A stretch of 47,572 nt of DNA, from the NCBI GenBank assembly GCA_041600755.1, contig JBFIJL010000005.1, positions 1-47,572 of the forward strand. The letters are read 5' to 3'. The position numbers and the translations under genes were made by a program. Numbering within the stretch: the first letter of the stretch is position 1; the number at the start of each line of letters is the position of its first letter. Positions 2 through 23,632 of the stretch are shown in pieces. The DNA comes from Candidatus Saccharimonadales bacterium. Its GTDB lineage: Bacteria; Patescibacteriota; Saccharimonadia; Saccharimonadales; JAXHNE01. The notes beneath the pieces were generated by a model. That model did no database searches. It had not been told where the DNA came from and worked only from the letters and a program-made list of their open reading frames with translations.

Positions 2-2977
2 ACAGCTGACCAGACAGAGATTAACAACGCCCTTACAGCAGCAAGCGGCGGCAAAGTTCTCTTGTTGGCGGGAACCTACGTAGCCGATGGAACTATCCTA
101 ATCCCGAACAACACTACTCTTTCGGGCACGGGGAATGGAACTGTTGTTCAGCTTGTTGGTGCAGTTAACGATAATCTTATTGAAAACAGTGACACTACAT
201 CAGGAACGGGAGTTACTATACGTGATATCCGACTAGATGGAAGTTTAGGGACTGGAACTAATCAACGTGGAATTGCGTTGAATAATCTTGGTGCAGGTTC
301 TGGTTCATCTGCAAGGAGTGGTGGCGCAGTTATGTCTGTTATTGTTGAGGGCTTTGAGGGCACTGGAATAAGGATAAGTGCTTCGAACAATAACCTCATT
401 AGCGGCAACGTGTCGAGAGACAACACTAACGGATTTGGTGTCGATACAGGTTCAAGCCACAACACGATCGTTGGAAATATTTCACAGGGCAACGATGACG
501 GCTTTGCAGTTGGAGGTAGTTATAATACTTTCGCAAATAATACTGTCCAAGGAAATACAGCTAGCGGGTTCAACCTGAGCTCCACTAATAACAATGTGAT
601 TAATGGCAATACGGTCGCCGACAACGGAGCGGGGACAGCCAATAACGGGATAGTTCTTACAAGTTCTGACAATAACAAGATTACCAATAACTACATCACC
701 GATACCCAATGCGACACCACCTGCTATGCCATTAATATTGATGCGGACAGCGACAATAACTACCTAGCCGACAACCACTACACCGACACTGATGTTGATG
801 ACGACAGTACTATTAATGATGCAGGCACTGGAACCATCTATGGTGGACAGCAGTCTGGCGCATCTGGAGATTTCACCATCCAGCCAGCCGGTAGTATCTT
901 ACTCACTGGCGATACTGACATCACTGGTGCTTTGAGTGTTACAGATGGCATAACTATCGACGGTGCGGTCACCGACATCACTACCGGCACCAATCAAGAC
1001 CTCACAGTTATAGCCAATGGAACAGGCATCATCAACCTAAATGACACAGTACGCATAGGTACACTTGGCGCCGTAACGGGTGACAGCGCCACAGTCTGTC
1101 GCGACACAGTAACTGGTCTGCTTACCGCCTGTGATGCCAACACAACTGGCACTCCATTCCTGCAAGGTGGGAATAGCTTTGGCGACGTGGCAACACTTGG
1201 AACAAACGACACCGAAGATCTAAATGTTATCACTGACGGCAATATACGATTCATTGTTCAGGCAGACGGCGACATAGCGTTCAACACAGACACATTGTTT
1301 GTGGACGCACAAGACGGTCAAGTAGGTATTGGAACGGCTACGCCAAACTCCACCTTTGATGTAGTTGGTACAGAAGCTGATGGCTCATATGTTGCAAGTT
1401 TCCAAAATACCACCGCAGGAGGCGATATAATACGCGCTTTGAATTCTAGCGGTGCCAACATCTTCGAGGTTGACCAGTCAGGTTCAGGCCATGCAATACT
1501 CAGGCTCTACAACGGTTCAGGCACCACAATAATGAATATTCAGGCAGCCGGAGACTCACACCTAACTCCAAGCGCTGGCAATGGCTTTAGTATCGGTACG
1601 ACCAGCAATAATGGAGCAAAGCTTGAAGTTGATACTGATCCTGCCGAAAATCTCATTGCATTACTGATAACCCAAGATGACACCACCAATAATAACGCTG
1701 CACTTCGAATCGATAACAGGGGAACAGGCAACAGTTTAGAAGTTATAGATAATGGAACAGCAACTCCTGTGCTTGGTATCGGCGCTACTGGAAATGCATC
1801 CTTCCAGAACTCTACAGATCAAGCGAATGCTTTCCAGATACTTAATGCTGCTGGAGATGACATATTATCTGTCGATACCACTGACAGAAAAGTAATAATC
1901 GGTGATTATCCAACCGAAACAGCTGGCTCGATCACTGGTCAACTTCAGGTTCGACCAGTAAATGATGGTCGAGTAGGCATTGTGGTTAGTCAGTTCTCTG
2001 GCAGTGCAACCGGCGATTTCATACAAGGTCGAAACAGCTCCGATGGGCAAATATATTTTGCAATTGATGCATCTGGAGGTGCAGTGTTTAACGAACAGGG
2101 ATTTGCGACAGGAAACTTCAGGGTCGAGGGCGACACTAATAACAATCTACTTTACGCCGATGCTGCTAATGACCGCGTAAGCGTAGGTGATGCAACGCCA
2201 GACTATAAATTCGAAGTACAGGGAACTTCTGGGAATGGCTACTTTGGAATCAGTAGCAGTGATGTTGATACGGCCAATATATTTAGCATAAATAGTACAG
2301 GTCGAGTGTTTGTTGGAACTGTAGCCAACGCCGATGTTGCAACTAGCAAGCTGTACGTTGAGGGCGATACTCAATTAGAGGGTATTACTAGAGTGGGTAA
2401 TGCAACTAACTACGCCGAATTCGCAGCCAGTGGTCAGCTAAGATTTACTGGAACCGCTCGAAACAGCCGCCAGGTACTGCTCGCTCCAGAGTTCTCCGGT
2501 GCAACATTAACTGGCGATGGCACCAACAACGTTGGTGTGATGACTTCTGATTTTTGTAGCAATAGTAGCCCAGCTATAAATACGGGTGTCTGTGCGGCCT
2601 CAAATGAACGACACAACTATTACAATTGGACAGCCAATGCCACAAACGACTACTCAATATTCCTTAAATGGCGAGTTCCAAGCGACTACAGTGCCCTAGA
2701 AAGCGGTACGCCAATTCAGTTCTATGGAACTCGCTCGAGCAGCTCTGCAGGAACCTCAGTAACACTAACGTTACTCAATTCTGCAACTGGGGCAACTTGT
2801 GGTGTCGCAACTCCGATTACCAATACGACCGCCTGGACTATAACGACATATAACACGACTGGCTGTACGTTGACCAAAAACCAGGAGATGATCTGGCGAG
2901 CCGATCTTTCTGTTGGCGTGAATGCCGAGTCGGCTCGAATGGGTGAGATCTACTTTAATTACCTGGCGGACTTCTAA
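2..2977 (+). CDS. Large surface protein with right-handed parallel beta-helix (pectate-lyase/NosD-like) region and fibre-like repeats; 5'-truncated by the window edge
   Basis: Frame is open from nt 2 (TADQTEINNALTAASGGKVLLLAGTY), upstream of the listed start at 62. It has Asn-rich beta-helix repeats (NNLISGN, HNTIVGN, YNTFANN, NNVINGN), a QGGNSFG..LGT motif and a GQVGIGTATP fibre-type motif. Confidence 0.75.
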   Translation, partial: TADQTEINNALTAASGGKVLLLAGTYVADGTILIPNNTTLSGTGNGTVVQLVGAVNDNLIENSDTTSGTGVTIRDIRLDGSLGTGTNQRGIALNNLGAGSGSSARSGGAVMSVIVEGFEGTGIRISASNNNLISGNVSRDNTNGFGVDTGSSHNTIVGNISQGNDDGFAVGGSYNTFANNTVQGNTASGFNLSSTNNNVINGNTVADNGAGTANNGIVLTSSDNNKITNNYITDTQCDTTCYAINIDADSDNNYLADNHYTDTDVDDDSTINDAGTGTIYGGQQSGASGDFTIQPAGSILLTGDTDITGALSVTDGITIDGAVTDITTGTNQDLTVIANGTGIINLNDTVRIGTLGAVTGDSATVCRDTVTGLLTACDANTTGTPFLQGGNSFGDVATLGTNDTEDLNVITDGNIRFIVQADGDIAFNTDTLFVDAQDGQVGIGTATPNSTFDVVGTEADGSYVASFQNTTAGGDIIRALNSSGANIFEVDQSGSGHAILRLYNGSGTTIMNIQAAGDSHLTPSAGNGFSIGTTSNNGAKLEVDTDPAENLIALLITQDDTTNNNAALRIDNRGTGNSLEVIDNGTATPVLGIGATGNASFQNSTDQANAFQILNAAGDDILSVDTTDRKVIIGDYPTETAGSITGQLQVRPVNDGRVGIVVSQFSGSATGDFIQGRNSSDGQIYFAIDASGGAVFNEQGFATGNFRVEGDTNNNLLYADAANDRVSVGDATPDYKFEVQGTSGNGYFGISSSDVDTANIFSINSTGRVFVGTVANADVATSKLYVEGDTQLEGITRVGNATNYAEFAASGQLRFTGTARNSRQVLLAPEFSGATLTGDGTNNVGVMTSDFCSNSSPAINTGVCAASNERHNYYNWTANATNDYSIFLKWRVPSDYSALESGTPIQFYGTRSSSSAGTSVTLTLLNSATGATCGVATPITNTTAWTITTYNTTGCTLTKNQEMIWRADLSVGVNAESARMGEIYFNYLADF

Positions 2978-3210: not shown

Positions 3211-5709
3211 ATGAGAGGGAAGAAACAGCCGATGCTTGCAAAGCCACAACAAGCCTACAAGTCTATGCGACTATTTGCCAACCGAACGCTTTTGGCGACT
3301 CTTTCGCTCACTCTAGCCTCGGCAAATATACTGTTTGTGTTTGTGCATCCAGAAAAAGTTGATGCAGCACCAGTGACGTATGTTGCATCGGCAAGCGCAA
3401 CAAGCGGAGTGGGTACTTCAATATTAATAAACAAACCAACAGGAACAGTTGAAAATGATGTGCTCGTAGCTACTGTGGCATTCGTAGGATCTAGTGGATA
3501 TACAGTGAGCCCACCTGGAGGCGGCGGCTGGACGTTAATTAAAGACGTCAGTACATCGGGGTATTATCCTGGCAAAACATACTACAAAGTTGCTGGATCA
3601 AGCGAGCCTGCTAGCTATACATTTACGGTAAGTTCATCAACAAATGCAGGCGTAGGGGGGATTGTAAGCTATCGTAATGTGAACACGTCAAGCCCAATTG
3701 ATGGCAATTCCGCGTTGGCAAGCGGAAGTTCTTCAACTCACGTCGCTCCTGCGACCACAACAACGGCTTCAGAAACAAGAACTGTTGTTATATACAATCA
3801 ATCAACAGTTGGCACTGGACTTAATATGAGCTGGACGGCTACTACACCTTCTACGATGTCCGAAAGAGTGGACACCTACGGTAATTTCAGTACATCGTAC
3901 ATAGGGCTAGGTTTCTATGATATATCGCAGAATGATGCTGGAGCGATGGCTACTAAGACCGCAACGTCAACACGGAGCTCAAGTTATACTGCGTTTCAGT
4001 TTGCGCTTGTACCAGCCGACCCTACTAGGATGTTGCTGTATTGGGATGGTGGGGCCGCACCATCTGGCTGGAGTTTTGTGTCAGAAGCAAATGATAAGTT
4101 CATAAGAGGTGAATCGCCAGCTAATTATGGCCTAACTGGAGGGGCGGCCACTCATGCAACGACCGCCAGCGTGACTGTCGGCCCCGCAGATACTGGTAGT
4201 CAGGGTGGTGTTCGTGGCGGTACCGCAGACAGTGCTGCAACAGCCCATACCCACACTGCCACCGCCAGTATTGGTTCGGCAAATAATCTTCCAGCATATA
4301 GGACATTAAGGCTTATGAGATTTGATGCAGGAATTCCCAATAATATTCCTGCGGGTGCAATTGCACTTTTTGATGATAGCCCAGGCATTATTCCGCCACA
4401 GTTTACGCGTTATTCGGCTCAGGATGGATCGTTTGTTAGATCTGCATCCACCTCTGGCTCAACAGGAGGATCGAATACTCACACGCATACGATTACCTGG
4501 AGTAGCCTTGCTGCCTCTGCGGGCGAAGTCAGAAGGACTGCTCCATTATTTCTAAATAACTCAGTCGCCAGTAATGCACATACCCATAATGCCCCTGCTG
4601 CCACCACGACTAGTACCAATGGCACGTCAGCCGCAGACTGTGAAGTGGAGCCGGTTGGAGATAGCTGCTTGCCACCTTACGTGAATAGTATACTCGCTAA
4701 AGCCAATGAAGATACGCCAACACTCTCTATAGGTATTACGGCGATGTTTGACGCTGATCCCGGGGGTGGCTGGGTTGTTAGATCTGATTCAGGAGGATCG
4801 TACTATCAAAAATTTATGCGTGGAAGTGCGTCTTACGACGAAGTGTGTGGTCAGCTAGGTATTGGTGACGGGACCTGTGGAGAAGCAGAGCATACTCACG
4901 TCAATGCAACGACAACCAGTACGAACAACAACGGGGGTGGCTCTAATGCACTGCTCGGTTTAGGTTCGGTCGCATCTCCCCACAATCACGTCATGACAGC
5001 TGCTTTTAATCCAGCAAACAATATTCCAGAATACTACAATGTTGTTGTGGCAGAAAAAATTAACTTTATTCAGCATCAGTATCGATGGTTTGTGGATTCG
5101 GATTTAGCCGATGTGACTGATCCGTGGTCTAGCCAAGATATCCCGCAGAATACAGCGATTACGGTTGTGCCGGTGGCGAATGATGCGCCTCGTGCTAACA
5201 GGGAGTTGAGGTTGCGTACACAGATTCTTGTAGGAAATAACGACCTTGCAGCCAATGGAATCGAGTTTAAATTACAGTACAAGCTTGGTACTGATGGACT
5301 ATGCACTACAGGCAGCTGGCAGGATATAGGTGACCCTGGAAGCGGGCTACCTTGGCGATATGCAGCATCTAGTGTAGCGAACGGGGCGGACTTAAACGCA
5401 TTCCCAAGCAGGATCAATAGTCCAACATCGAATGTTATGCAGATATATGTCAAGGATGCCGGTGCAGGAACCAATCCGCGAGCCGTTAGCGTTGGGCAGT
5501 ATGCAGAATATGATTTTCATATCATGCATAACGGTGCAGATGGCTCAAGTCGGTATAGCTTTAGGATGGTGGAGGACAGTGGTATTTTGTTGAGTCAATA
5601 CGATAGTTGTCCGACTCTTGTAGCATTTCCGGACACCGAAGATCAGTTACGACATGGTAACTTCTTCGAGAATGGACTTGGAGAGACTGGATTCTCATGG
5701 TCAGACTAA
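3211..5709 (+). CDS. Secreted Ser/Thr/Gly-rich protein with three phage tail-collar-like / HxH fibre units
   Basis: Signal-peptide-like N-terminus ending V-D-A. Three units of the form (P.GW)...F.R...GG..THxH...HxH...NxxPxY. TGG-TATACT (-10 at 3195-3200) upstream. Confidence 0.75.
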   Translation: MRGKKQPMLAKPQQAYKSMRLFANRTLLATLSLTLASANILFVFVHPEKVDAAPVTYVASASATSGVGTSILINKPTGTVENDVLVATVAFVGSSGYTVSPPGGGGWTLIKDVSTSGYYPGKTYYKVAGSSEPASYTFTVSSSTNAGVGGIVSYRNVNTSSPIDGNSALASGSSSTHVAPATTTTASETRTVVIYNQSTVGTGLNMSWTATTPSTMSERVDTYGNFSTSYIGLGFYDISQNDAGAMATKTATSTRSSSYTAFQFALVPADPTRMLLYWDGGAAPSGWSFVSEANDKFIRGESPANYGLTGGAATHATTASVTVGPADTGSQGGVRGGTADSAATAHTHTATASIGSANNLPAYRTLRLMRFDAGIPNNIPAGAIALFDDSPGIIPPQFTRYSAQDGSFVRSASTSGSTGGSNTHTHTITWSSLAASAGEVRRTAPLFLNNSVASNAHTHNAPAATTTSTNGTSAADCEVEPVGDSCLPPYVNSILAKANEDTPTLSIGITAMFDADPGGGWVVRSDSGGSYYQKFMRGSASYDEVCGQLGIGDGTCGEAEHTHVNATTTSTNNNGGGSNALLGLGSVASPHNHVMTAAFNPANNIPEYYNVVVAEKINFIQHQYRWFVDSDLADVTDPWSSQDIPQNTAITVVPVANDAPRANRELRLRTQILVGNNDLAANGIEFKLQYKLGTDGLCTTGSWQDIGDPGSGLPWRYAASSVANGADLNAFPSRINSPTSNVMQIYVKDAGAGTNPRAVSVGQYAEYDFHIMHNGADGSSRYSFRMVEDSGILLSQYDSCPTLVAFPDTEDQLRHGNFFENGLGETGFSWSD

Positions 5710-6428
5710 GCGTATCGAGAGCAAAACTACGCAAAGTCGTAGACTGGCTGCCAGCGATACTGATTAGTCTTGTGATCGTCGGAGCGTACCACACCCAGAT
5801 ATATGCAAATCGTGCACCAAGTAGTTCTGAGCTTGCAGCTTATCTGTCTGGCGGGGGGCAAGTTAGAGGCGGGAGCATCTCCACTAGAGGCTATCAGCAA
5901 GTTTACTACATGTTTAATGGTGGTGTGTACTACCTGACAGATGGTCCGGAAAATCGACGAAATGTATCAATTTCAGGAAGATATATCGCTTGGGAAAAAG
6001 AAGTAAATGGCAGAGGTCAGATTGCCGTTCATGACTTGCTCACTGGTACGAGCCGTATGGTGACTAGTACTGGAGCCAACCAGTTTCCACGCGTTGATCA
6101 GTTTGGGAATATCGCTTGGGAGCGCTGGGACGGTGGAGTGTATCAAGTTATATACTATTCCTATCAGAACAACTCTCTTTCCAAAATTTCAGATTCCGAA
6201 AGAGGCGGCATTCGGCCTACTGTTTTAGGCAATAGAGTAGCGTATGCCACACAGGAGGCCGACATGAGCTGGTCTGTAACGGAGGTGGATGTGGTTACTG
6301 GAGATAGATTTTCAATACTAACTGGCAGAATCTCAACAGACGCATGGCCACAGTATCAGTCTCAAACGGAGCTAACAACGGACTTGAGTCAATTCAAAAA
6401 GCTCGTCGAACCTCTTATTCAGCAGTAA
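5697..6428 (+). CDS. Membrane-anchored TolB-like / beta-propeller repeat protein
   Basis: N-terminal TM segment; repeats SISGRYIAWE...QIAVHDL, QFPRVDQFGNIAWE, PTVLGNRVAY. Confidence 0.6.
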   Translation: MVRLSVSRAKLRKVVDWLPAILISLVIVGAYHTQIYANRAPSSSELAAYLSGGGQVRGGSISTRGYQQVYYMFNGGVYYLTDGPENRRNVSISGRYIAWEKEVNGRGQIAVHDLLTGTSRMVTSTGANQFPRVDQFGNIAWERWDGGVYQVIYYSYQNNSLSKISDSERGGIRPTVLGNRVAYATQEADMSWSVTEVDVVTGDRFSILTGRISTDAWPQYQSQTELTTDLSQFKKLVEPLIQQ

Positions 6429-7209
6429 TTTTATCTATAATAGCTTGGATTTGTGGCGATGAATTGGGGTTAGCCTTTGACTGTAGAATGTTTGACAGTT
6501 CCACGATCGATTCACTTTTCAAGGCATCATAGTCGCTCTTACAGGTGTTAATGTGATCAGCAGTTGTGTTTTCAAAACATTTCAGGACATGCTGAACTGC
6601 GGATTTAGTCGTTGCCGATAATGTGTAGGCGACGACGTTAGGAATTTCGACAGTACTTCCATCGGGTAGCTGATACCATTTCTGTGCATTATATTTTCTA
6701 TCGCTTTCACCAAATGATTTGAGCGCGGATATTGCAGTCGAAAGACGCTCTTCTTTGGTAGTAGTCACTGCCTCTGACTGCTGCAGATCAAAGACTGGGC
6801 TATAGGCTAAAATTGGATCTATGAACTCCCTGAACCCTAGAAATTCAAGATAGGTGCGCCGTGTATGATCAACCAACTGCTCGTAGTCGTTCTGGCTAAT
6901 GCCTATTGTATTGAGGTCGCTAGCGGCAAGATCGAAACTTCTATTGATACTGGATAACCTATCAGTTAAGGCAATTGCAGTATTGTACGACTCGGAAGAG
7001 TCGACAGCGAGACTATCAAGTTCATGAGTAAGTAGTGCATATTCCTGTAAGGTGTCGATGAACTGTTGTTTGGTGCGGGAGTTCCCTTCATTCTTGCTCT
7101 CGATGTAGCTCGGCACGATAATGAAACCAGCGTACACTACTGCAAGGACAGTTACGCATGCGGCGCTACGAAGCAGATGGCGAGTGAAGCTCTTTTTATT
7201 AAATTTCAT
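6415..7209 (-). CDS. Hypothetical membrane-anchored protein
   Basis: 264-aa ORF with basic N-terminus plus TM helix, helical body and a Cys pair near the C-terminus. Confidence 0.7.
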   Translation of the reverse strand: MKFNKKSFTRHLLRSAACVTVLAVVYAGFIIVPSYIESKNEGNSRTKQQFIDTLQEYALLTHELDSLAVDSSESYNTAIALTDRLSSINRSFDLAASDLNTIGISQNDYEQLVDHTRRTYLEFLGFREFIDPILAYSPVFDLQQSEAVTTTKEERLSTAISALKSFGESDRKYNAQKWYQLPDGSTVEIPNVVAYTLSATTKSAVQHVLKCFENTTADHINTCKSDYDALKSESIVELSNILQSKANPNSSPQIQAIIDKITAE

Positions 7210-7403: not shown

Positions 7404-10400
7404 ATGACTGACCGAGTGATTGCTCGAAATATTGTGCGACATTGGATGCGCTTAGCTTCCAGGGTATCTCTAACCACTTTGGGTAGGGGTTTTGTTTGTT
7501 TAGTTTTACTTTTGGTTCTTGTTTCTTATACGCGCGTATATACACCTACGCGCGTGTATGCTGCAACTGCCGATACTCTAAATTTTCAAGCTCGGGTTTA
7601 TGATTCAGCTGGCAATACTGCTGTGGACGGTAGCTACTCAATTTCGTTTAAGCTCTACGAGGCCGCATCTGGTGGTGCTAGTGTCTGGACCGAAACACAA
7701 GGGGCTGTGAATTTAAAAAATGGCTACTTTAGCGTAGAACTTGCATCTGTTACGCCATTTGGAGGCGGTATAGATTGGTCGCAGGAAAAGTGGCTAACAA
7801 TGAACATTAACGGCGATGGCGAAATGAATCCGCGACTCAAGCTCACCGCCACTCCGTACTCCTTGCTTTCCGAGCAGGCAAACACCTTAAGCGATGGCCT
7901 GGGTGGTGCACTCGCTGCCAACGAGTTAGTGCAGTTAACTCCGGGCACGCCACAGGCAGTTGCTAGCGCGCTTGCGGCACTTCGTATAAATCAAACTGGT
8001 GGTGGATTACTAGCTCAGCTCCAGGGCGACAGCATTGATTCATTCACTATTGCTAAGAATGGAGACGTAACTTCAACTGGAAGTGGAACTTTTGCTGGTG
8101 GAATTAAGATTGCCGGAATATCGGTTTTGACGAGTGGACGAGAATTGCAGAATATTACAGGGCTTACAATTGTGTCTGGAGGGGCAGGCATCACTGGCGG
8201 CATCGATAATAACAGCGGTGGAATTACAAATGCTGGTGCCATCAGTGGTATAACGGGTGTCACTTTCACGAGTGGTAATCTGAACCTCGCAAACGGCGGC
8301 ATTGTTAATGCAGGCAGCATTGCCGGGGCTACTACGATTGTAGCCAGCGACAACATCAATACAACCGGTGGATCTCTTTTGACGAATAGCATAGCCCGTA
8401 TTGCAAATAACGGAGCATTGCAAAATGTGACTGGCGACAATAGTAATGGCGTGAGTCTTAATGCGAACACAATTACTGGCGGAACGCTTTCTGCGGCACG
8501 AGGCGGTACGGGTGTTGACGGTTCAGCTGCGGCTAATGGACAGCTACTTATCGGAAATGGTTCTGGATATACTCTGTCCACGCTCACTGCTGGCAGCGGT
8601 GTGAATATCGTAAATAGCCCAGGAGCGATAGCGATAGCCGCAATACTTGGCGACAGTATTAGTACTGCCGAAATTGAGAACTCTGCCGTCACGACTGCCA
8701 AGATTGCAGACGGAAATGTGACTAACACTAAGCTTGCAAACAGTTCACTGACAGTAAATTCTGGAACTGGATTGAGCGGCGGTGGGCTAGTGAGTTTGGG
8801 TGATAGTATTACATTGAACCTGGACGATACTGCCGTGACGGCTGGTTCGTATGGTTCGACGAGCAGTGTTGCAACCTTCACAGTTGACGCGCAAGGCAGA
8901 TTAACTGCAGCCGGCACAACAACACTTGCCAATACCGCCCTACAAAACAGTAGCTTTAGTCTTATATACGGCAGTGCAAATTTGAGCGGTGATGCAAACG
9001 TCTCACTGGGCGGAACGCTTAACATTGATTTTAGCGACAATCCGTCATTTACGACACTCACGACTTCCGGGGCAATCACCGCGGCAACATCCACAAACAC
9101 AATCAATGGTCTTGTTATTAATAGCGGTGCGCTTAGTGGTGTAACTGGCATAGCGTTCACCAGTGGCAGTCTTAATCTTAATGGTGGTGATTTAACAAAT
9201 GGCGGAACTCTAACTGGCGTGACAATTAATGCAACCTCCGGATTTCAGCACAATGGCACCAATGGTCGTACTCTGAATTGTAGCTCAACTGAAGGAATTG
9301 AGGATGTCGAGATTCGTGGCGGAATAGTAATAACCTCAGCTTGTAGAGGTTTTGGTTTGTCGGATTCGGGACTAAAGGAAAATGTTACAAGTCTTAGTAG
9401 CTCTGTTCTCGATGACATTCGAGATGTAAATGTCGTTAATTTTGATTTTGACTGTACGAATTCAATTTTTGTTCAAAACGGAGGAACCTACTCATGCGAT
9501 AACAGTACACAGACAGGTGTAATCGCACAGCAACTTGAAGCTATATTCCCTGATCTTGTGTTCACGGGCGACGACGGCTATAAGCGTGTTCGCTACGAGG
9601 GCCTTGCAATGTATAACCTTAAGGCCGTTCAAGAGCTGGCAAGTCTTGTGGATTCTTCAGGCAATTACGACATAAATTCAGTTAGCACTAACGGCGTGTT
9701 GCGACTGTCGAGTACAGGCGAGCTAACAAACATTAATGGCCTGACAGTTTCTTCGGGCGGTGCTTCGATTACTGGCGGTATCGATAACAATACTGGTGGC
9801 ATTACAGAGGCTGGGGCGGTTAGTGGCGTAGCAGGTCTGACATTCGCGAGTGGAGCTTTGAATCTTAATAACGGCGGAGTTACCAACACCGGAAGTATTG
9901 CTGGCGCAACTAGCATAACTGCAAGCGATACGTTGAATCTAACTGCTGGAGTTTTGCAAACAAACAGCGTTACACGCCTAACCAATGCGGGCGCCCTACA
10001 GAACATTACAACAATTAGCGCTTCCGGCGCCATAGCTGCTGCAACCACCACCAACACTATTAATGGCCTTGTTATTAATAGTGGTGCGCTTAGTGGTGTA
10101 ACTGGATTTGCTCAAACTAGCGGCAACTTTACTCAATCTGGATCTGGAACCTTTGCAACCGGCACAGGCCAGAACACATTGAATGGGCTCACAAGTTTAA
10201 CTGGCAATACAACAATCACCGGCTCTAACACATTTACTGTTGGGTCTGGGCTGACGACATTAGGGGGCGGGCTTACGCTCACAGGAACTACAACAATTAA
10301 TCCAAGTGGAAGTGCAGCAGTTTCTATTGGTAATGCATCCACGCCACTGTCGATTGCATCATCGGGGCTTAGTGTTGCGACGAGCGGCAACTTAAAAACA

Positions 10401-13400
10401 AGTGGAACTATCATCTCTGAAAACATTAATTACAATGTCTTTGCTTCATCTGAAACGAATAATTCGTACGGCTACTTTAGGGCAGTTGAATCTGGAGATT
10501 CAGCAGGCCGATTTGAGATCGGAGGCTATGATATTTATGGCGCATCACAAGGAGGTCGGTCACTTGTCTTAAACCCATTAGGTGGGAATGTTGGCATAGG
10601 CGGCGATTTCACACCAGACGGACTGTTGTCTGTAGGGTCTACGAGCCAGTTTCAAGTAAATGCGAGTGGCCAGATAATTGCTTCAACCTCAGGTACTATT
10701 AATGGCTTATCTGTGACCAGTGGATCGCTGTCTGGAATTACGGGCTTCACGCAAACCAGTGGTAACTTTACTCAATCCGGTGCTGGAACATTCACAACCG
10801 GCACAGGGACGAATACATTAAACGGCACAACTAGCTTGACTGGCAACACATCAGTCACAGGATCGAATACTCTTACTGTTGGAACTGGACTAACAACCCT
10901 CGGTGGCGGGGCGTCAATCACCGGAGGAATCAACAATAACAGTGGTGGAATTACTAGCGCCGGAGGAATTAGCGGAATTGCAGGGATGACCTTTACTAGT
11001 GGTAATCTGAACCTTGCAAACGGTGGCATTACTAACACGGGCTCAATTGCAGGTGCTACAACAATAACAGGAAGTGGGATTATAAACACCACAGGAGGTG
11101 CATTGCACACAAATAGCATTGCACGCATTGCTAATAACGGCGCACTTCAGAACGTTTACGGAGACGTATCGAACGATGTTTTTCTTAATGCAAACACCAT
11201 AACGGGAGGAACCTTGCTTGTCGAGCGAGGCGGAACCGGGACGGGGACTTTGACGACACGTGGAGTAGTTTACGGAAACGGGACGGGAGCACTGCAAGCT
11301 ACTGCCGCAGGTACTGGTGGGCAGGTGTTGATTGCAAATGCGAGCGGAGTTCCAACATTCATGACACTATCCGGAGATGTGACTGTTAATAATTCTGGAC
11401 TTACTTCGATTGGAGCAAATGCAGTTGCATTGGGCACCGATACGACAGGAAATTATGTGGCAACAATATCCGTTGGAGATGGTCTGACTGTCAGTGGGGT
11501 TGGCTCAGAAAATTCAACAGCAAGCATTGGTATTGATGTAAGCACAACTGGCTCAACTAGTACTACAAGCAGCAACTCCGGACTAGAAACAACTGCAACA
11601 GGGCTTCGGCTTATAAGTGGCTGTAGCAATGGTCAGTTATTGGAGTGGCAAGGTACGACAACAGGGTGGGAGTGTAACAATGACAATACCTTCTCTGATT
11701 CGAACTTAAAGCAGGGAGTGTCTACCCACAGCTCTGTGCTCGATTCCTTCAAAAACATAAGAATTGTCGACTATACATACAAGTGCAATGATCCACTGTT
11801 TGCACATCTTACGCTTAGCTGTGATGATCAAACTGGCGTAATTGCTCAGGAGCTGGCGCTTGTGTTTCCTGAGCTTGTAGAAATTAAATCCAGTGGACTC
11901 TTTGGAGTTGACTATAAAAAGCTTCAAACATATACCATTCGTGCAGTTAGTGAAATCGCTGCATATATAGAAGCCGATGGCGATGCGAAGCTGTCCAATA
12001 TAAGTACCGGGGGCACACAAAGATTAAGTAGTTCGGGTGTGCTCCAAAATATTACGGGATTAACGGTTGTATCCGGAGGAGCGTCAATAACGGGAACAAC
12101 TTCAATTAATGTCAATAGTGCAAGCGCTACGAATATTAATACAGGAGCCAGCACTGGTTCGATAAATATCGGGGGAGGGCTCTCGCCACTTGTCATTAAC
12201 TCCACAAACTTTGATGTTTCATCTGGTGGCGCATTGAGTGGAATTTCAACGATTAGTGCAAGTAATAACATAAGCACAACACTCGGTGGACTACAGACAG
12301 CCGGGACCACTAGGCTTACTAACGGAGGCGCACTTCAAAACATTACTGGGCTGACCATAGTGTCTGGTGGTGCGTCAATAGTAGGTTCGACATCAGTTTC
12401 TGGTGCATTCACTGCCTCAGGAGGTACGGTAAATGTAAACGTGAACGGAATTACGACAGGCACAAACATAAATACGGGTACGAGTACAGGGGCAGTTGCG
12501 ATTGGTGGCGGACTTGCCACCTTCTCACTGAATTCAACTGCTTTTGACGTCTCATCAACTGGTGCGCTAAGCGGTATTTCTACAATAAATGCAAGTAATG
12601 ATATTACGACAAGCGGAGATGTGAACGTCACTGGACTTGGCGTATACCAAATAAACGGAATAAGCGGCGAGACTGTTACCTGTAGTGGCAACAACTATCT
12701 AGCGAACATTCAACTAATCGGCGGAATTATCACTAGCTATGGTAGTTGTCGTGGCGTTGGCTTGTCGGATATACGTCTTAAAGAAAACGTCGTATCACTC
12801 GATAGCTCAGTGCTTGACAAGATTAAAAATGTGAACACAGTTACTTTTGACTATACATGTGATGATGAGTATTTTACTCAAAACAACATCGGTTGTGACG
12901 ATGAGCATCAGACTGGTGTTATTGCACAAGAGCTTGCACAAATTTTCCCTGATCTTGTTGAACAGGATGAGTATGGTTACTTTAGAGTAAAGTATGATGC
13001 GTTAAGTGTATACAACCTTAAGGCCACTTCAGAGCTTGCCAAGACTATCGACAGTCAAGGCAATGTAACGAGTAACACTGTAGCAACAGGTGGCACAATT
13101 CGTTTGAATGCGGGCGGTGAGTTGGATAATATTACGGGCCTAAGGCTAGTTGGCGGCGGTGCAAGCATTGTTGGCGGCATCAACAACAACGGCGGTGGCG
13201 TTACCGAAGCTGGTGTCATTGATGGTGTCACTACTTTAACTGCGCAGTCAGTCAAGATCAGGAGCAATAGTTTCGATAACTTATTGGAACTTACAAAGGA
13301 TAATCAAGGAGTGTTTACCGTGTTTGAATCTGGCGCACTTCAGCTTAGACTGACAGCCGATGAAGCGTTTATTGTTAAGAACCAGGCCGGCGATGACTTC

Positions 13401-13988
13401 TTTAGCGTAAATACTGAAGGCGGTTTGGTGCGCATTGGTTCTGAGTTGAATCAAGCAGGCGTGTTGTTGGTTTTGGATAATGTAGCACTTGATGGCGACC
13501 CAGTTGGCGTGAACGGTGGACAGTATTACAATACAAATCTGCAGAAGTTCCGCTGTTTTGAAAATAGCGTTTGGGTGAACTGTATCGCTTCGCTTGGTTC
13601 AGAATACAACATCGCATCTGTACCATTTAGCTGGAGGCAGCCAGTGGTCAACCAGGAAATACCAACCGAACAGCAGGTCTGGACTGATTTATCAACAGCC
13701 AACGAGTTTAGGATGGTGGCCAATGTTCGGGATACAGGCGCCATTAATGCCGCCTGTAGGCTGGAATATACAACCGAGGGTAGGGGTTACTGGCGATCGC
13801 TTTCTGACGACGATGACTATCTACTGCCCGTTTCTGCTTCCGGCAGTATTCGATCAGACTGGCGGAAGATTTCGGTTCCTGCGCAACAGGATGCATTGAT
13901 TAGAGTTGTTTGTCGTAACGGAGACAGTACAAACGATAGTAATGGCACGGTGCTGAAGATTGACTCAATAAGGATGCAGGTTCGATAG
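7404..13988 (+). CDS. Giant secreted fibre/adhesin (2194 aa) with three internal Peptidase_S74 intramolecular-chaperone domains
   Basis: Signal/TM N-terminus, then an 'LNFQARV...F.LY....GG..VWTETQ...GYFSVEL...EMNPRLKLTATPY' domain and G/T/S/N-rich repeats. Three copies of SDxxLK...TGVIAQ.L...FP.LV...V.Y..L..Y...A..E. Confidence 0.85.
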   Translation: MTDRVIARNIVRHWMRLASRVSLTTLGRGFVCLVLLLVLVSYTRVYTPTRVYAATADTLNFQARVYDSAGNTAVDGSYSISFKLYEAASGGASVWTETQGAVNLKNGYFSVELASVTPFGGGIDWSQEKWLTMNINGDGEMNPRLKLTATPYSLLSEQANTLSDGLGGALAANELVQLTPGTPQAVASALAALRINQTGGGLLAQLQGDSIDSFTIAKNGDVTSTGSGTFAGGIKIAGISVLTSGRELQNITGLTIVSGGAGITGGIDNNSGGITNAGAISGITGVTFTSGNLNLANGGIVNAGSIAGATTIVASDNINTTGGSLLTNSIARIANNGALQNVTGDNSNGVSLNANTITGGTLSAARGGTGVDGSAAANGQLLIGNGSGYTLSTLTAGSGVNIVNSPGAIAIAAILGDSISTAEIENSAVTTAKIADGNVTNTKLANSSLTVNSGTGLSGGGLVSLGDSITLNLDDTAVTAGSYGSTSSVATFTVDAQGRLTAAGTTTLANTALQNSSFSLIYGSANLSGDANVSLGGTLNIDFSDNPSFTTLTTSGAITAATSTNTINGLVINSGALSGVTGIAFTSGSLNLNGGDLTNGGTLTGVTINATSGFQHNGTNGRTLNCSSTEGIEDVEIRGGIVITSACRGFGLSDSGLKENVTSLSSSVLDDIRDVNVVNFDFDCTNSIFVQNGGTYSCDNSTQTGVIAQQLEAIFPDLVFTGDDGYKRVRYEGLAMYNLKAVQELASLVDSSGNYDINSVSTNGVLRLSSTGELTNINGLTVSSGGASITGGIDNNTGGITEAGAVSGVAGLTFASGALNLNNGGVTNTGSIAGATSITASDTLNLTAGVLQTNSVTRLTNAGALQNITTISASGAIAAATTTNTINGLVINSGALSGVTGFAQTSGNFTQSGSGTFATGTGQNTLNGLTSLTGNTTITGSNTFTVGSGLTTLGGGLTLTGTTTINPSGSAAVSIGNASTPLSIASSGLSVATSGNLKTSGTIISENINYNVFASSETNNSYGYFRAVESGDSAGRFEIGGYDIYGASQGGRSLVLNPLGGNVGIGGDFTPDGLLSVGSTSQFQVNASGQIIASTSGTINGLSVTSGSLSGITGFTQTSGNFTQSGAGTFTTGTGTNTLNGTTSLTGNTSVTGSNTLTVGTGLTTLGGGASITGGINNNSGGITSAGGISGIAGMTFTSGNLNLANGGITNTGSIAGATTITGSGIINTTGGALHTNSIARIANNGALQNVYGDVSNDVFLNANTITGGTLLVERGGTGTGTLTTRGVVYGNGTGALQATAAGTGGQVLIANASGVPTFMTLSGDVTVNNSGLTSIGANAVALGTDTTGNYVATISVGDGLTVSGVGSENSTASIGIDVSTTGSTSTTSSNSGLETTATGLRLISGCSNGQLLEWQGTTTGWECNNDNTFSDSNLKQGVSTHSSVLDSFKNIRIVDYTYKCNDPLFAHLTLSCDDQTGVIAQELALVFPELVEIKSSGLFGVDYKKLQTYTIRAVSEIAAYIEADGDAKLSNISTGGTQRLSSSGVLQNITGLTVVSGGASITGTTSINVNSASATNINTGASTGSINIGGGLSPLVINSTNFDVSSGGALSGISTISASNNISTTLGGLQTAGTTRLTNGGALQNITGLTIVSGGASIVGSTSVSGAFTASGGTVNVNVNGITTGTNINTGTSTGAVAIGGGLATFSLNSTAFDVSSTGALSGISTINASNDITTSGDVNVTGLGVYQINGISGETVTCSGNNYLANIQLIGGIITSYGSCRGVGLSDIRLKENVVSLDSSVLDKIKNVNTVTFDYTCDDEYFTQNNIGCDDEHQTGVIAQELAQIFPDLVEQDEYGYFRVKYDALSVYNLKATSELAKTIDSQGNVTSNTVATGGTIRLNAGGELDNITGLRLVGGGASIVGGINNNGGGVTEAGVIDGVTTLTAQSVKIRSNSFDNLLELTKDNQGVFTVFESGALQLRLTADEAFIVKNQAGDDFFSVNTEGGLVRIGSELNQAGVLLVLDNVALDGDPVGVNGGQYYNTNLQKFRCFENSVWVNCIASLGSEYNIASVPFSWRQPVVNQEIPTEQQVWTDLSTANEFRMVANVRDTGAINAACRLEYTTEGRGYWRSLSDDDDYLLPVSASGSIRSDWRKISVPAQQDALIRVVCRNGDSTNDSNGTVLKIDSIRMQVR
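8178..11240 (+). repeat. Intragenic duplicated modules: 8178-8513 ~ 10905-11240 (112 aa); 9063-9149 ~ 10020-10106; 10107-10271 ~ 10746-10910 (55 aa)
   Basis: Ungapped peptide repeats, e.g. TFTSGNLNLANGGI and TNSIARIANNGALQNV twice, NTINGLVINSGALSGVTG twice, QTSGNFTQSG twice. DNA identity is still visible (agtggtaatctgaacct at 8271 and 10998). Confidence 0.85.
9360..9644 (+). other. Peptidase_S74 / intramolecular chaperone domain, copy 1 (S653-D-S-G-L-K658)
   Basis: SDSGLKENV...TGVIAQQLEAIFPDLV...VRYEGLAMYNLKAVQEL. Confidence 0.8.
11694..11963 (+). other. Peptidase_S74 domain, copy 2 (S1431-D-S-N-L-K1436)
   Basis: SDSNLKQGV...TGVIAQELALVFPELV...VDYKKLQTYTIRAVSEI. Confidence 0.8.
12765..13043 (+). 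other. Peptidase_S74 domain, copy 3 (S1788-D-I-R-L-K1793)
   Basis: SDIRLKENV...TGVIAQELAQIFPDLV...VKYDALSVYNLKATSEL. Confidence 0.85.
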
Positions 13989-20094: not shown

Positions 20095-20556
20095 ATGAAG
20101 ATTCATTTTATATGCCGTGGAAACGCTATTCGCAGCATAATGGCAGAAGCGTACCTAAAATCGCGTGAACTAGAGAATCTTGAAGTTGCATCGTCGGGCA
20201 CTGTCGCCAGTGCGCATCATGACATAAACGTGTCGGTATTCGCTCGCGTCGCGGAAATATTAGACAAGCAAGGACTTGCAGCGTATCGAAAATCCGATTT
20301 CGGAGATCAGTTATCGAGCGATAGCTTCAGTAGCGAAGACATAAATATCTGTATGAGTGATGAGGTCGTTGCTGAGGCCAAGCAACTTGTTGATTTTGCG
20401 CAACCACCGATTATTTGGCATATTAAAGACGTTGATGTCGGTGAGCAGAGAATTGAACACACCGAGACTCAGCTGGACACCTTCTTGGGTGAAGTTTATG
20501 GCGACATCAAGGAACACGTTGATATGCTCGTTCAGCAGCTTGGCTTACTCGTTTAG
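20095..20556 (+). CDS. Low-molecular-weight phosphatase / arsenate reductase superfamily protein
   Basis: P-loop FICRGNAIRS (CX5R), MAEA, SSGT; W.I.D near the C-terminus. Confidence 0.85.
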   Translation: MKIHFICRGNAIRSIMAEAYLKSRELENLEVASSGTVASAHHDINVSVFARVAEILDKQGLAAYRKSDFGDQLSSDSFSSEDINICMSDEVVAEAKQLVDFAQPPIIWHIKDVDVGEQRIEHTETQLDTFLGEVYGDIKEHVDMLVQQLGLLV

Positions 20557-21375
20557 GCTGAAGCGCTGAATAAGATCTTTTGTCGACTCTAGTGTAAAGC
20601 CATGTTCGTTGGCTAGCGCCCTGAGGGCCTGGTGTTGTGACGTTAGGCTTTCGGTCAGTATTGCTTTTGGCTTCTCAACAAGCTGGTTAATTTGCTTGAA
20701 CATTTTACGGTAGGCATCTAGCCCGTCATCGCCCGCGAATAGCGCCAGAGCTGGCTCAAATTGAGCTGCTTGATTGATGGGGTGGTTGTCAGGTACATAG
20801 GGTAGGTTAGCCAGTATGATAGTTGATGATTGATAGGTGCTAGGTGATATTGGCTCCAATAAGTCGCCTTCAAGTAACTCAATCTTTGCGCCAAGGGTTT
20901 GCGCATTTGTTTGTGAAATATCAAGACATTCGCGGGATATGTCAGTCGCCAATACTCGGATGTCGGGTTGTTCCAACTTCATGGATATTGCAATGCAGCC
21001 AGTGCCAGTGCCGACGTCTATGATATTTTCAACCTTCAATTTCTCATTTTCGATTAACTGGATTGCCATCTCAATCATTGCCTCAGTTTCCGGCCTAGGT
21101 TGCAGCGTGTCTGCTGTCACTAAAAACTCCCGTCCATAGAACTCACTTCGTCCACGGATGTAGGCTAGCGGTTCGTGGTTTGCTCGTCGCTCTACTAAGC
21201 GTCCAAGCTTTTTGACTTTCTCGCTTTCCAGCTCTACTTCAGGGTGGGCGAGTAGCCAGGCCCGGTCTTTGCCAGTAATATCTTCAAGCAGCACCAGACA
21301 GTCTAGACGCGCCGACTCAACACCAACAGTCTTCAACTTCTTGGCCGTAGCATTTATAAAATCCTTGATTGTCAT
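20545..21375 (-). CDS. prmC: Release factor N5-glutamine methyltransferase PrmC/HemK
   Basis: EPLAYIRG..EFYG, PRPETE, DVGTGTGCIA, ANLPYV, EP..ALF.G.DGL. Confidence 0.96.
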   Translation of the reverse strand: MTIKDFINATAKKLKTVGVESARLDCLVLLEDITGKDRAWLLAHPEVELESEKVKKLGRLVERRANHEPLAYIRGRSEFYGREFLVTADTLQPRPETEAMIEMAIQLIENEKLKVENIIDVGTGTGCIAISMKLEQPDIRVLATDISRECLDISQTNAQTLGAKIELLEGDLLEPISPSTYQSSTIILANLPYVPDNHPINQAAQFEPALALFAGDDGLDAYRKMFKQINQLVEKPKAILTESLTSQHQALRALANEHGFTLESTKDLIQRFSLNE

Positions 21376-22579: not shown

Positions 22580-23632
22580 TTATTCGGAGCTTAGGAGTTC
22601 GTGTTCGGCTTTGTGAAGTTCTTCTATAATGTCGTCAATGTTGCCGTCCAGGGCACCAGGAATGTTGCTGCGGCTATAGCCAATGCGGTGATCTGTAATA
22701 CGGTCTTGCGGAAAGTTGTAGGTTCGGATTTTTTCACTGCGGTCACCACTACCAACCAGTTTTTTGCGCTCTGCAGATAGTTTGGCGTTATCTTCGTCAA
22801 TTTTGTGCTGGAGTAGGCGAGACCGGAGTACACTCATGGCTTTGAGCTTGTTTTTTATCTGAGATTTTTCGTCTTGGTTGGTGACAACCAGTCCGCTTGG
22901 AATGTGGGTAATGCGCACCGCAGAGTCAGTGGTATTTACTGATTGGCCACCGTGGCCCCCAGCGCGGTAGACGTCTATACGCAGGTCTTCGGTTTTAATT
23001 TCAATGTCAGATTCTTCGGCTTCTGGCATGACGGCAACGGTTACGGTGCTGGTGTGCACGCGGCCTTGGCTTTCGGTTTCGGGAACGCGCTGTACGCGGT
23101 GTACGCCGCCCTCGAACTTTAAGAACTTATAGGTATCTTCACCGCGAACTGCAAAGCTAACTTCTTTGAATCCACCAGCGTCTGATGCTGATTCGTTTAG
23201 GAGTTCTACCTTGTAATCGTGCGTTTCTGCCCAGCGTATATACATGCGGTACAGTTCACCTGCAAAGAGGCTGGCTTCATCGCCGCCCGCGGCCCCACGA
23301 ATTTCGACAATGACGTCTTTTTCATCGTTGGGGTCTTTTGGTGTGAGGATTTCTGTCAGTGTTGCCATGGTTGACGTGAGTTTTGATTCTAGTTCTGTGA
23401 GTTCAAGTCGAGCCAGGTCGGCTAGTTCGCCGCCAGCTTCGATCATGTCGTTGGCATCAGCAATTTCAGATTCAAGCTGGGATTTTTCATCAAACAAGGC
23501 AAGGGTGTCTTCTAGCTTCTTTTGGCGACGGGCGATTTTTGGGTAGCTGGGAGTACTGAAGATACTTGGGTCTTCTAGTTTTTTGGCAATGGCTGCCAGT
23601 TCGTCTCTAAATTCTTGCTCTTTTTTATCCAT
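22580..23632 (-). CDS. prfA: Peptide chain release factor 1
   Basis: [25 protein letters not shown] (PxT), [30 protein letters not shown]. Confidence 0.98.

What the first reader, a model, noticed from the sequence alone, without database searches (positions are those of the whole stretch)
7404..13988. 2194-aa fibre with three INTERNAL S74 autocleaving chaperone domains: a possible self-processing polyprotein
Seen: three complete S74-like domains starting at S653, S1431 and S1788, all keeping S-D-x-x-L-K, GVIAQ, FPxLV and the final helix. None is terminal; 314 aa follow the last one. Each is followed by the same restart motif (STNGVLRLSSTGELTNINGL / STGGTQRLSSSGVLQNITGL / ATGGTIRLNAGGELDNITGL). 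Known: S74 domains (e.g. K1F endosialidase, Ser911/Lys916 dyad with the same spacing) are normally single and C-terminal, drive trimer folding, then cleave themselves off. Inference: either the protein cuts itself into four pieces (roughly 650, 780, 355 and 405 aa), giving shed or non-covalently stacked fibre segments, or the domains are retained as serial folding nodes in a very long fibre. I do not know a described example of either.
Basis: partly seen in the sequence, partly recalled or inferred. Interest (0 to 1): 0.85.

Follow-up and report, generated by a model that had tools for sequence, protein, structure and literature searches.

The report
Bacterial surface fibre with three self-cutting domains
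A tiny marine Saccharibacteria-like bacterium, not a phage, encodes a very long three-stranded surface fibre in which three phage-type fold-then-cut domains sit between fibre segments instead of at the end.

Summary
ORF 7404..13988 (+) is open for 2194 aa. Pfam finds three Peptidase_S74 stretches, with S-D-x-x-L-K at S653, S1431 and S1788. The domains are 41-55% identical to each other.

The gene is bacterial, not phage. It lies in a 0.8-Mb, 97.7%-complete genome beside parA/parB, signal peptidase, SecA and tRNA synthetases.

It belongs to a large Saccharibacteria/Patescibacteria fibre family. Members share a signal sequence, an Ig-like N-terminal domain, a repetitive shaft and varied tips. 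In all 71 S74-bearing members examined, at least 121 aa follow the last S74, so an internal S74 is the family norm.

Multiple S74 domains recur. Of 242 proteins examined, 50 have two, 2 have three and 1 has four.

The Ser and Lys are invariant in 89 of 89 complete domains, which argues for real self-cleavage. The 307 aa after the last S74 are predicted to form an intertwined trimer with a jelly-roll tip (score 0.89, best control 0.00).

Closest known are the Bdellovibrio MAT fibres and MyRF. I rate it a new variant of a known kind. Whether the cut pieces stay together is open.

The parts
7404..13988 (+). Whole gene, 2194 aa plus stop: trimeric surface fibre with three internal S74 domains
   Evidence: Open frame. 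Pfam S74 in 3 stretches. 169 homologues at E <= 1e-3.
7404..7562 (+). aa 1-53: Arg-rich N-region, the protein's single hydrophobic segment (about aa 20-49), then V-Y-A|A. Sec signal peptide or signal anchor.
   Evidence: It is the only hydropathy window >= 1.6 in the protein. The 'VYAA' site is conserved in the 14 homologues printed. SPase I and SecA are encoded in the window. Cleavage of the signal is inferred, not tested.
7563..7868 (+). aa 54-155: conserved N-terminal Ig-like beta-sandwich domain, the presumed cell-proximal end
   Evidence: The first 215 aa match the N-termini of 106 other proteins at 30-64% identity. AF2 gives pLDDT about 85-95 over model residues 10-95, all-beta. Foldseek finds no specific PDB match, best E 0.023.
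7869..9359 (+). aa 156-652: shaft segment 1, G/T/S/N-rich internal repeats, ending in a Cys pair (C626, C647) just before the first S74
   Evidence: Self-BLAST repeats. Repeat motif positions, composition and Cys positions.
9360..9662 (+). aa 653-753: S74 domain A (Ser653/Lys658)
   Evidence: On the domain tree it groups (99*) with the first domain of P0002 and with P0127, nested among 'last-type' domains.
9663..11693 (+). aa 754-1430: linker plus shaft segment 2
   Evidence: Repeats 26-57% identical to the other shaft segments.
11694..11981 (+). aa 1431-1526: S74 domain B (Ser1431/Lys1436), the 'inner-type' class
   Evidence: It lies in a 97* clade of 26 rows holding 19 of the 26 inner domains of the family.
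11982..12764 (+). aa 1527-1787: linker plus shaft segment 3
12765..13061 (+). aa 1788-1886: S74 domain C (Ser1788/Lys1793), 'last-type'
   Evidence: Best Pfam stretch 1788-1852..
13062..13601 (+). aa 1887-2066: post-S74 shaft and 'neck', including the F-R-C...W..C hairpin
   Evidence: Conserved over its full length in 50 homologues at 33-58% identity. Low pLDDT as a monomer, but an intertwined trimer in the three-copy model, with interface residues 6-187 and chain pLDDT 84-87. The neck is shared with 20 S74-less homologues that end in other tips.
13602..13985 (+). aa 2067-2194: C-terminal jelly-roll/beta-sandwich tip, the presumed binding end
   Evidence: AF2 pLDDT about 90. Generic jelly-roll matches: best Z 8.1, then CBM6/36, XepA, BclA C-terminus and TNF-like. 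Foldseek top hit is the Bdellovibrio Bd2133 fibre tip 8OND, E 6e-6 but TM only 0.17-0.22.

Best explanation
This is a Sec-exported homotrimeric surface fibre of a Saccharibacteria-like ultra-small bacterium. It is built like the mosaic adhesive trimer (MAT) fibres of Bdellovibrio: a signal sequence, a conserved Ig-like N-terminal domain at the cell-proximal end, a long repetitive shaft, and a jelly-roll tip. It differs in having three catalytically competent S74 intramolecular-chaperone domains between shaft segments rather than at the end. Proposed mechanism (inferred): each S74 trimerises through its C-terminal helices and sets the register for the shaft segment on its N-terminal side. A chain that leaves the cell N-terminus first can then fold segment by segment, without waiting for the far C-terminus. 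Once its segment is folded, each S74 most likely cuts the chain at its own Ser (S653, S1431, S1788) through the Ser-Lys dyad. The mature fibre would then be nicked at three joints. Whether the pieces stay clasped together or come apart is not settled by anything I could compute. Shown here: the domain content, the intact dyads, the bacterial context, family-wide internal placement, recurrence of multi-S74 proteins, and a predicted trimer downstream of the last S74. Inferred: trimer state of the whole fibre, order of folding, cleavage, orientation on the cell, and function in attachment.
For: Three S74 hits with S-D-x-x-L-K intact. Ser and Lys are invariant in 89 of 89 complete S74 domains of 120 homologues; two partial hits lack that part. 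The Ser-to-Ala mutant of Bdellovibrio Bd3182 still gives a single unprocessed protein (PMC10769870, passage read). That suggests the Ser is needed for cutting rather than folding, so its conservation points to selection for cleavage. Bacterial housekeeping genes surround the gene, and the four flanking ORFs tested have no PHROG hit. The genome is 807,510 bp and 97.7% complete. The full-length tail occurs in MAGs labelled Candidatus Saccharibacteria, Saccharimonadales or Patescibacteria. Internal placement: 71 of 71 S74-bearing close homologues have at least 121 aa after the last S74. Recurrence: among 242 proteins examined, 50 have two S74 domains, 2 have three and 1 has four. Inner domains form their own class: 19 of 26 fall in one 97* clade, so the multi-domain layout is old, not a one-off. 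The tail after the last S74, modelled in three copies, scores ipSAE 0.89, 0.89 and 0.85 against a best control of 0.00. Partner pLDDT is at least 83 and the runs share at least 92% of contacts. In the tool's calibration 20 of 30 proteins solved as pairs and 1 of 23 solved as single chains reached the mark; that calibration used two copies, not three, and not my own alignment. Mosaic tips: the S74-less homologues P0064 and P0066 end in the same tail, and 20 others share only the neck and end differently. In relatives P0025, P0034 and P0040 the N-terminus is a cytoplasmic HTH pair followed by one membrane segment. That puts the N-terminus at the cell and the C-terminus outward.
Against: No direct evidence of cleavage or of trimer state for this protein. 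If the cut pieces dissociate, as reported for phage and Bdellovibrio S74 proteins, the conserved lectin-like tip would be lost from the cell. That is hard to square with an adhesin role. Homologues P0064 and P0066 carry the same tail with no S74, so an S74 is not needed to build that end. The stepwise-folding rationale does not scale. Many 3000-3700-aa relatives have S74 only in their last fifth; P0025, for example, has them at 3059 and 3497 of 3742. Only the query, P0002 and P0127 have one far upstream. The predicted trimer may owe part of its score to likeness to solved trimeric fibres (caveat). The link to MAT fibres rests on architecture and one low-TM Foldseek hit. I did not compare sequences with MAT proteins.
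Confidence: 0.55

Rival explanations
1. True polyprotein. All three S74 domains cut and the products separate. Only the N-terminal piece of about 600 aa stays on the cell. Three soluble trimers, each starting with an S74 cap, are shed: 653-1430, 1431-1787, and 1788-2194 carrying the tip.
For: Invariant Ser/Lys. In the described cases the S74 part separates from the fibre after cutting: Bd3182 gives two bands, and S74 removal is said to be needed to expose the binding cleft (PMC10769870, passages). MyRF's ICA domain makes almost no contact with the upstream stalk (abstract of PMC8326128). The tail is predicted to trimerise on its own.
Against: It would discard a conserved, lectin-like tip that S74-less relatives keep covalently on the shaft. 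No role is known for shed S74-capped trimers. Nothing here measures dissociation.
Confidence: 0.25
2. Retained nodes. The S74 domains serve only as permanent trimerisation and registry knots and do not cut in this protein.
For: It keeps the tip attached, which an adhesin needs. Each S74 unit carries four conserved Cys: 123 of 139 units have two within 40 aa upstream and two inside. This suggests a stabilised, lasting extracellular structure.
Against: Ser, Asp and Lys of the catalytic motif are invariant in 89 of 89 complete domains. The Ser is dispensable for producing the protein in Bd3182. Every S74 domain tested experimentally in the papers I read does cut.
Confidence: 0.17
3. Artefact: several adjacent fibre genes fused by misassembly or a read error.
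For: The gene is internally repetitive. Same-genus genomes have their copies broken at contig ends.
Against: A separate assembly of run X1 (flagged as possibly this DNA's source, so not independent) holds one 20.6-kb contig covering the stretch with 0 differences. Contigs from two other samples are identical and bridge each S74 with both flanks. No DNA repeat exceeds 78% identity. The same S74-then-shaft junction occurs in 71 of 71 S74-bearing family members, and 15 other homologues have two S74 domains.
Confidence: 0.02
4. A prophage or phage-derived tail fibre gene, used by a virus rather than the cell.
For: PHROG tail-fibre and baseplate families hit the S74 parts. S74 domains are common in phage fibres.
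Against: No phage genes flank it. The neighbours tested are parA/parB, SPase I, LytR and HtrA downstream, a NosD/beta-helix protein upstream, and three upstream ORFs with no Pfam, NCBIfam or PHROG match. It has an N-terminal signal sequence. The best phage match to S74-C is only 38.5% identical, and all 127 matching records are below 60%.
Confidence: 0.02

Closest known systems
Bdellovibrio bacteriovorus MAT (mosaic adhesive trimer) fibres, Caulton et al. 2024, PMC10769870 (passages read)
   Same: Both are chromosomal genes of a bacterium that lives on other bacteria. Both have a signal peptide followed by a conserved beta-rich N-terminal domain, a long trimeric shaft and mosaic C-terminal tips (beta-sandwich, TNF-like, lectin). 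An S74 domain with S-D-x-x-x-K is present in part of the family and absent in the rest. The best Foldseek hit of the tail is the Bd2133 fibre (8OND, E 6e-6).
   Different: As described in the paper, a MAT ends either in an S74 (13 of 21) or in a tip (8 of 21). Here the S74 is followed by more shaft and a tip, and there are three S74 domains. The protein is about twice as long as a typical MAT (about 1000 aa). Sequence homology to MAT proteins was not tested, and the TM-score of the 8OND match is low (0.17-0.22).
MyRF (myelin regulatory factor) ICA domain, PDB 7DC3, PMC8326128 (abstract read)
   Same: An S74/ICA domain lies inside the chain, with a long C-terminal part after it. It trimerises through a C-terminal coiled coil and self-cleaves through a Ser-Lys dyad. 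The profile of the three domains hits 7dc3 at E 4.7e-4.
   Different: MyRF is eukaryotic, has one ICA domain, and uses the cut to release a transcription factor from a membrane. Here the query has no DNA-binding domain and no membrane segment after the S74. What follows is more fibre.
Phage tailspike and tail-fibre C-terminal intramolecular chaperones (K1F endosialidase and T5 pb1 as recalled and as cited; PDB hits 8jov and 6f45)
   Same: The same Pfam family and catalytic motif, with a beta-helical trimer upstream.
   Different: In phages the domain is single, terminal and discarded. Here there are three, all internal, in an exported bacterial protein. In the phage collection the best identity is 38.5%, and only 129 places were found in 127 records.

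Membership tests
Peptidase_S74 / intramolecular chaperone auto-processing domain (PF13884) | Match to the family profile above the curated cut-off | tested here: met
   121.2 bits against a cut-off of 22, in 3 stretches. Each stretch alone scores 36.6-59.3 bits in the genome scan.
Peptidase_S74 / intramolecular chaperone auto-processing domain (PF13884) | Ser-Lys catalytic dyad in S-D-x-x-x-K | tested here: met
   S653/K658, S1431/K1436 and S1788/K1793. Invariant in 89 of 89 complete domains of the homologues.
Peptidase_S74 / intramolecular chaperone auto-processing domain (PF13884) | Autoproteolysis at the Ser after trimer folding | not testable with these tools
   Needs expression of the segments with and without Ser-to-Ala, plus mass spectrometry.
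Peptidase_S74 / intramolecular chaperone auto-processing domain (PF13884) | C-terminal position (typical of the phage members, not required by the profile) | tested here: not met
   1441, 668 and 308 aa follow the three domains.
MAT fibres (Bdellovibrio) | Signal peptide followed at once by a conserved beta-rich N-terminal domain | tested here: inconclusive
   The same layout is present. Homology of this domain to the MAT N-terminal domain was not tested, and no solved structure matched.
MAT fibres (Bdellovibrio) | Homotrimeric beta-helical fibre | tested here: inconclusive
   Only the last 307 aa were modelled: ipSAE 0.89 against a best control of 0.00, pLDDT at least 83, at least 92% of contacts shared between runs. 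This is a prediction, not a measurement.
MAT fibres (Bdellovibrio) | Mosaic tips on a common chassis; S74 present in some members, absent in others | tested here: met
   Of 120 homologues, 46 have no S74. P0064 and P0066 have the same tail, 20 others share the neck and end in other tips. P0025 has a weak H_lectin hit at its end.
MyRF-type membrane-tethered factor | DNA-binding domain upstream of the S74 and a membrane segment downstream of it | tested here: not met
   Pfam finds only S74 in the query. The only hydrophobic segment is at aa 20-49.
Phage tail fibre gene | Located in a phage or prophage genome | tested here: not met
   Housekeeping neighbours. No PHROG hits in the four flanking ORFs tested.

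The most novel reading that the evidence does not exclude
The fibre is a programmed, self-segmenting polyprotein. One exported chain folds in four stages. It then cuts itself at three joints into four trimeric pieces, held only by non-covalent S74 clasps. These joints would act as built-in release points, letting an episymbiont shed the tip-bearing distal pieces or detach from a host cell. This would be a use of the S74 module described for neither phages, Bdellovibrio nor MyRF. It would be shared by a whole family of Saccharibacteria fibres in which the S74 always sits in front of the tip.
Probability: 0.25. Interest if true: 0.8.

Novelty: new variant of a known kind. Interest (0 to 1): 0.6.

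Why it matters
S74 domains are understood as disposable C-terminal caps that fold a trimeric fibre and then cut themselves off. Here a whole family of surface fibres in Saccharibacteria/Patescibacteria places a catalytically intact S74 in front of more fibre and a lectin-like tip, and some members stack two to four of them. So either cutting does not mean separation, or these cells deliberately make fibres that come apart. Either answer would change how the module is read. Cultivated members of this group live attached to other bacteria (abstract of PMC12206443, listed). How they recognise and hold hosts is largely unknown beyond type IV pili. Giant MAT-like fibres with exchangeable tips are therefore plausible host-recognition candidates. 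The question is directly testable with short recombinant segments.

Tried and rejected
- **Prophage or phage origin:** rejected.
- **Assembly chimera:** rejected.
- **'Restart motif' as a special post-S74 signal:** rejected. It is a general shaft repeat found about eight times.
- **Disulfide tether across the cut site:** considered because 123 of 139 S74 units have two Cys upstream and two inside. Their spacing suggests each pair closes a local loop on its own side.
- **C-terminal tip fold:** only generic jelly-roll matches (best Z 8.1, inside the tool's stated background of 7-8). I name no specific lectin family.
- **N-terminal domain:** no Foldseek match at E <= 0.001.
- **NCBIfam:** no family for the protein.
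- **Same-genus genomes G001-G003:** their copies are fragmented at contig ends and only about 39-47% identical over the longer matches (up to 83% over short shaft repeats). No synteny or domain count could be taken from them.
- **Expression:** no RNA holder listed among the sequencing runs, so nothing can be said about it.
- **Length versus number of S74 domains:** no simple scaling, so 'one node per fixed length' is rejected as a rule. P0148 does show a period of about 1100 aa.
- **Literature:** no paper found linking S74 to Patescibacteria (0 hits; none of the 4 papers or the 15 listed holds both an S74/chaperone term and a Patescibacteria term). No paper found on multi-S74 proteins (0 hits). 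Searches gave nothing relevant beyond MyRF and phage papers. Supplementary tables of PMC10769870, which list MAT members in other bacteria, were closed and might bear on prior description.
- **Origin of P0122 and P0148:** could not be established, and their S74 counts rest on my own HMM only, because they exceed the Pfam tool's length limit.
Full report
**1. The observation**

The + strand frame 7404..13988 is open for 2194 codons. Pfam finds only Peptidase_S74 (PF13884): E 2.1e-35, 121.2 bits against a cut-off of 22, in three stretches. A scan of the whole 807,510-bp assembly finds exactly these three, at nt 9360-9560, 11694-11879 and 12765-12959, all in one frame, and no other.

The motif S-D-x-x-L-K begins at S653, S1431 and S1788, and GVIAQ at 705, 1478 and 1838. 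In the alignment of the three copies, S, D, L, K, Q-T-G-V-I-A-Q, F-P-x-L-V and several helix positions are invariant. Pairwise identities are 41-55% over 118-137 aa, with E 1e-26 to 1e-44.

One detail needs changing. The 'restart motif' follows each S74 (772, 1545, 1905) but also occurs at 337, 863, 1246 and 1642, with a variant near 250. It is a recurrent shaft repeat, not a signal specific to restarts.

**2. Not an artefact**

No DNA repeat within the gene exceeds 78% identity. The run that may be the source holds the whole stretch in one 20.6-kb contig. Two other samples of the same marine-metagenome study hold identical contigs that bridge every S74 with both flanks: X2 8999-10143 and 12734-13122, and X3 11631-12241. 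These runs belong to one study, so this is support from separate samples, not from separate projects.

**3. Context**

The window is bacterial chromosome. Downstream lie ParA, ParB, signal peptidase I, LytR-Cps2A-Psr and HtrA. Further on are RF1, RF2, an M50 protease, four class II tRNA-synthetase genes, SecA and FtsX. Upstream are a NosD/beta-helix protein of at least 971 aa and three ORFs with no Pfam, NCBIfam or PHROG match above cut-off.

The genome is 0.81 Mb in 6 contigs and 97.7% complete. That size is typical of Patescibacteria. The full-length C-terminal module occurs in MAGs titled Candidatus Saccharibacteria, Saccharimonadales or Patescibacteria group (L025-L032). Homologues carry source names such as 'tail fiber domain-containing protein [Patescibacteria group bacterium]'. 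Among 40 related genomes, 10 have an S74 match, always inside very long open frames.

**4. The family**

The search returned 169 homologues at E <= 1e-3, of which 120 were listed. I scanned those 120 with an HMM built from the three query domains. Fifty-eight have one S74, 15 have two, the query has three, and 46 have none.

The S74 is never terminal. Requiring at least 60% HMM coverage, 71 of the 120 hold an S74, and all 71 have at least 121 aa after the last one; 56 have 261-360 aa. The 308-aa tail of the query is conserved end to end in 50 homologues at 33-58% identity. The first 215 aa match the extreme N-termini of 106 other proteins at 30-64% identity. This stretch comprises an Arg-rich start, one hydrophobic segment, a conserved V-Y-A-A site and a domain of about 100 aa.

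That domain is modelled as an Ig-like beta-sandwich, with pLDDT about 85-95 over model residues 10-95. It has no specific PDB match.

Tips are mosaic. P0064 and P0066 have no Pfam family at all yet end in the same tail. Twenty other S74-less relatives share only the neck (query 1961-2063) and then end differently.

A subgroup (P0025, P0034, P0040) starts with two MerR/HTH_17 domains and one membrane segment before the fibre. This fixes the N-terminus at the cell in those proteins.

**5. Multi-S74 proteins elsewhere**

A profile of the three domains found 33,506 proteins at E <= 1e-3 among 1.84 billion representatives. The result was 137 with one domain, 50 with two, 2 with three (the query and the 5145-aa P0122) and 1 with four. 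The four-domain protein, P0148, is 5473 aa with domains at 1489, 2654, 3743 and 4931.

This list is enriched for multi-domain proteins because summed scores rank them high, so it gives existence, not frequency.

On a tree of 139 domains, 19 of the 26 inner domains fall in one clade with support 97, and query domain B is among them. Query domain A groups with support 99 with the first domain of P0002 and with P0127, nested among 'last-type' domains next to domain C. So the layout combines an old inner class (B) with a later copy of the last-type module (A).

**6. Are the domains active?**

Ser, Asp and Lys of the motif are present in 89 of 89 complete domains from the 120 homologues; two partial hits do not cover that part. 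In Bdellovibrio Bd3182 the S782A mutant still yields protein, as a single uncleaved species (PMC10769870, passages read). That indicates the Ser matters for cutting rather than for making the protein. The MyRF abstract likewise reports cleavage through a conserved Ser-Lys dyad, active only in trimers. I therefore judge self-cleavage at S653, S1431 and S1788 more likely than not. This is inference.

**7. What lies after the last S74?**

As a monomer, the tail folds confidently only in its last 130 aa or so, as a jelly-roll with pLDDT about 90. Matches to that part are generic: best Z 8.1, then CBM6/36, XepA, BclA C-terminus and TNF-like lectins, all within the tool's stated background. The best Foldseek hit is the Bdellovibrio Bd2133 fibre, at E 6e-6 but with a low TM-score of 0.17-0.22.

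In three copies the tail gives ipSAE 0.89, 0.89 and 0.85 against a best control of 0.00. Partner pLDDT is at least 83, the runs share at least 92% of contacts, and the interface runs through residues 6-187. In the tool's calibration 20 of 30 solved pairs and 1 of 23 single chains reached the mark. That calibration used two copies rather than three, and not my own alignment. Part of the pass may come from likeness to solved fibres. With those caveats, the S74 appears to sit between two trimeric fibre parts.

**8. Mechanism**

I read the protein as a MAT-like adhesive trimer of an episymbiotic bacterium with S74 modules as serial folding nuclei. Phage fibres fold in the cytoplasm with the whole chain present. 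A Sec substrate leaves the cell N-terminus first, and an S74 folds what lies on its N-terminal side. An early S74 would let the first 600 aa fold before the remaining 1500 emerge. This rationale is mine and is weakened by the many long relatives with S74 only near the end.

The open problem is the tip. The family keeps a lectin-like tip behind an apparently active protease. So either the nicked joint holds, or the tip-bearing piece is meant to leave, or the cut does not happen. I put these at roughly 0.3, 0.25 and 0.17, with the rest unresolved. The conserved Cys quartet around each cut site (123 of 139 units) might matter, but I could not measure distances.

**9. Comparison and novelty**

Closest are the Bdellovibrio MAT fibres. 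They share the chassis and the S74/non-S74 dichotomy, but as described there each fibre ends either in an S74 or in a tip, never both. MyRF has an internal, cleaving S74, but only one, and uses it to release a transcription factor. Phage chaperone domains are terminal and discarded.

I found no paper on multi-S74 proteins or on S74 in Patescibacteria. Supplements were closed. The finding is a new variant of a known kind.

Noticed in passing
homologues P0025, P0034, P0040 (not in the window): These giant fibres of 3300-3700 aa start with two MerR/HTH_17 DNA-binding-type domains (P0025 aa 17-113). One membrane segment follows at about aa 175-230, then the extracellular fibre with two S74 domains. 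P0025 has a weak H-type lectin hit at its tip. In one search, 22 of the 120 listed proteins carry these HTH Pfam families. A cytoplasmic HTH pair tethered to a surface fibre is odd, and recalls MyRF only loosely.
   Followed up: partly
window 2-2977 (+), 3211-5709 (+), 5697-6428 (+), 6415-7209 (-): Upstream of the fibre gene lies a run of further large proteins, most with an N-terminal hydrophobic segment. One is a NosD/parallel beta-helix protein of at least 971 aa, open at the window start. The others are an 832-aa protein, a 243-aa protein and a 264-aa protein, with no family match above its cut-off. This may be a surface-protein neighbourhood.
   Followed up: partly
window 12909-12949: In run X1 a separate 249-nt contig matches only the Q-T-G-V-I-A-Q-coding core of S74-C, with 4 differences and unrelated flanks. 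It is presumably an S74 gene of another organism in the same sample.
   Followed up: no
window 20545-21375 (-): This 276-aa ORF matches phrog_23041 (function unknown) at E 5.3e-47. It is the only PHROG hit among the eight flanking or unannotated ORFs tested.
   Followed up: no
P0148 (5473 aa) and P0122 (5145 aa), from the representative library: These proteins have four and three S74 domains. P0148's domains are spaced about 1000-1100 aa apart. Neither appears among the proteins sharing the query's N-terminal domain, so they probably belong to other fibre families.
   Followed up: partly
window 22580-23632 (-) and 44090-45175 (+): Both a PCRF/RF-1-family gene pair (RF1-like and RF2-like) are present, which fits the standard stop-codon set used for all translations here.
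   Followed up: no
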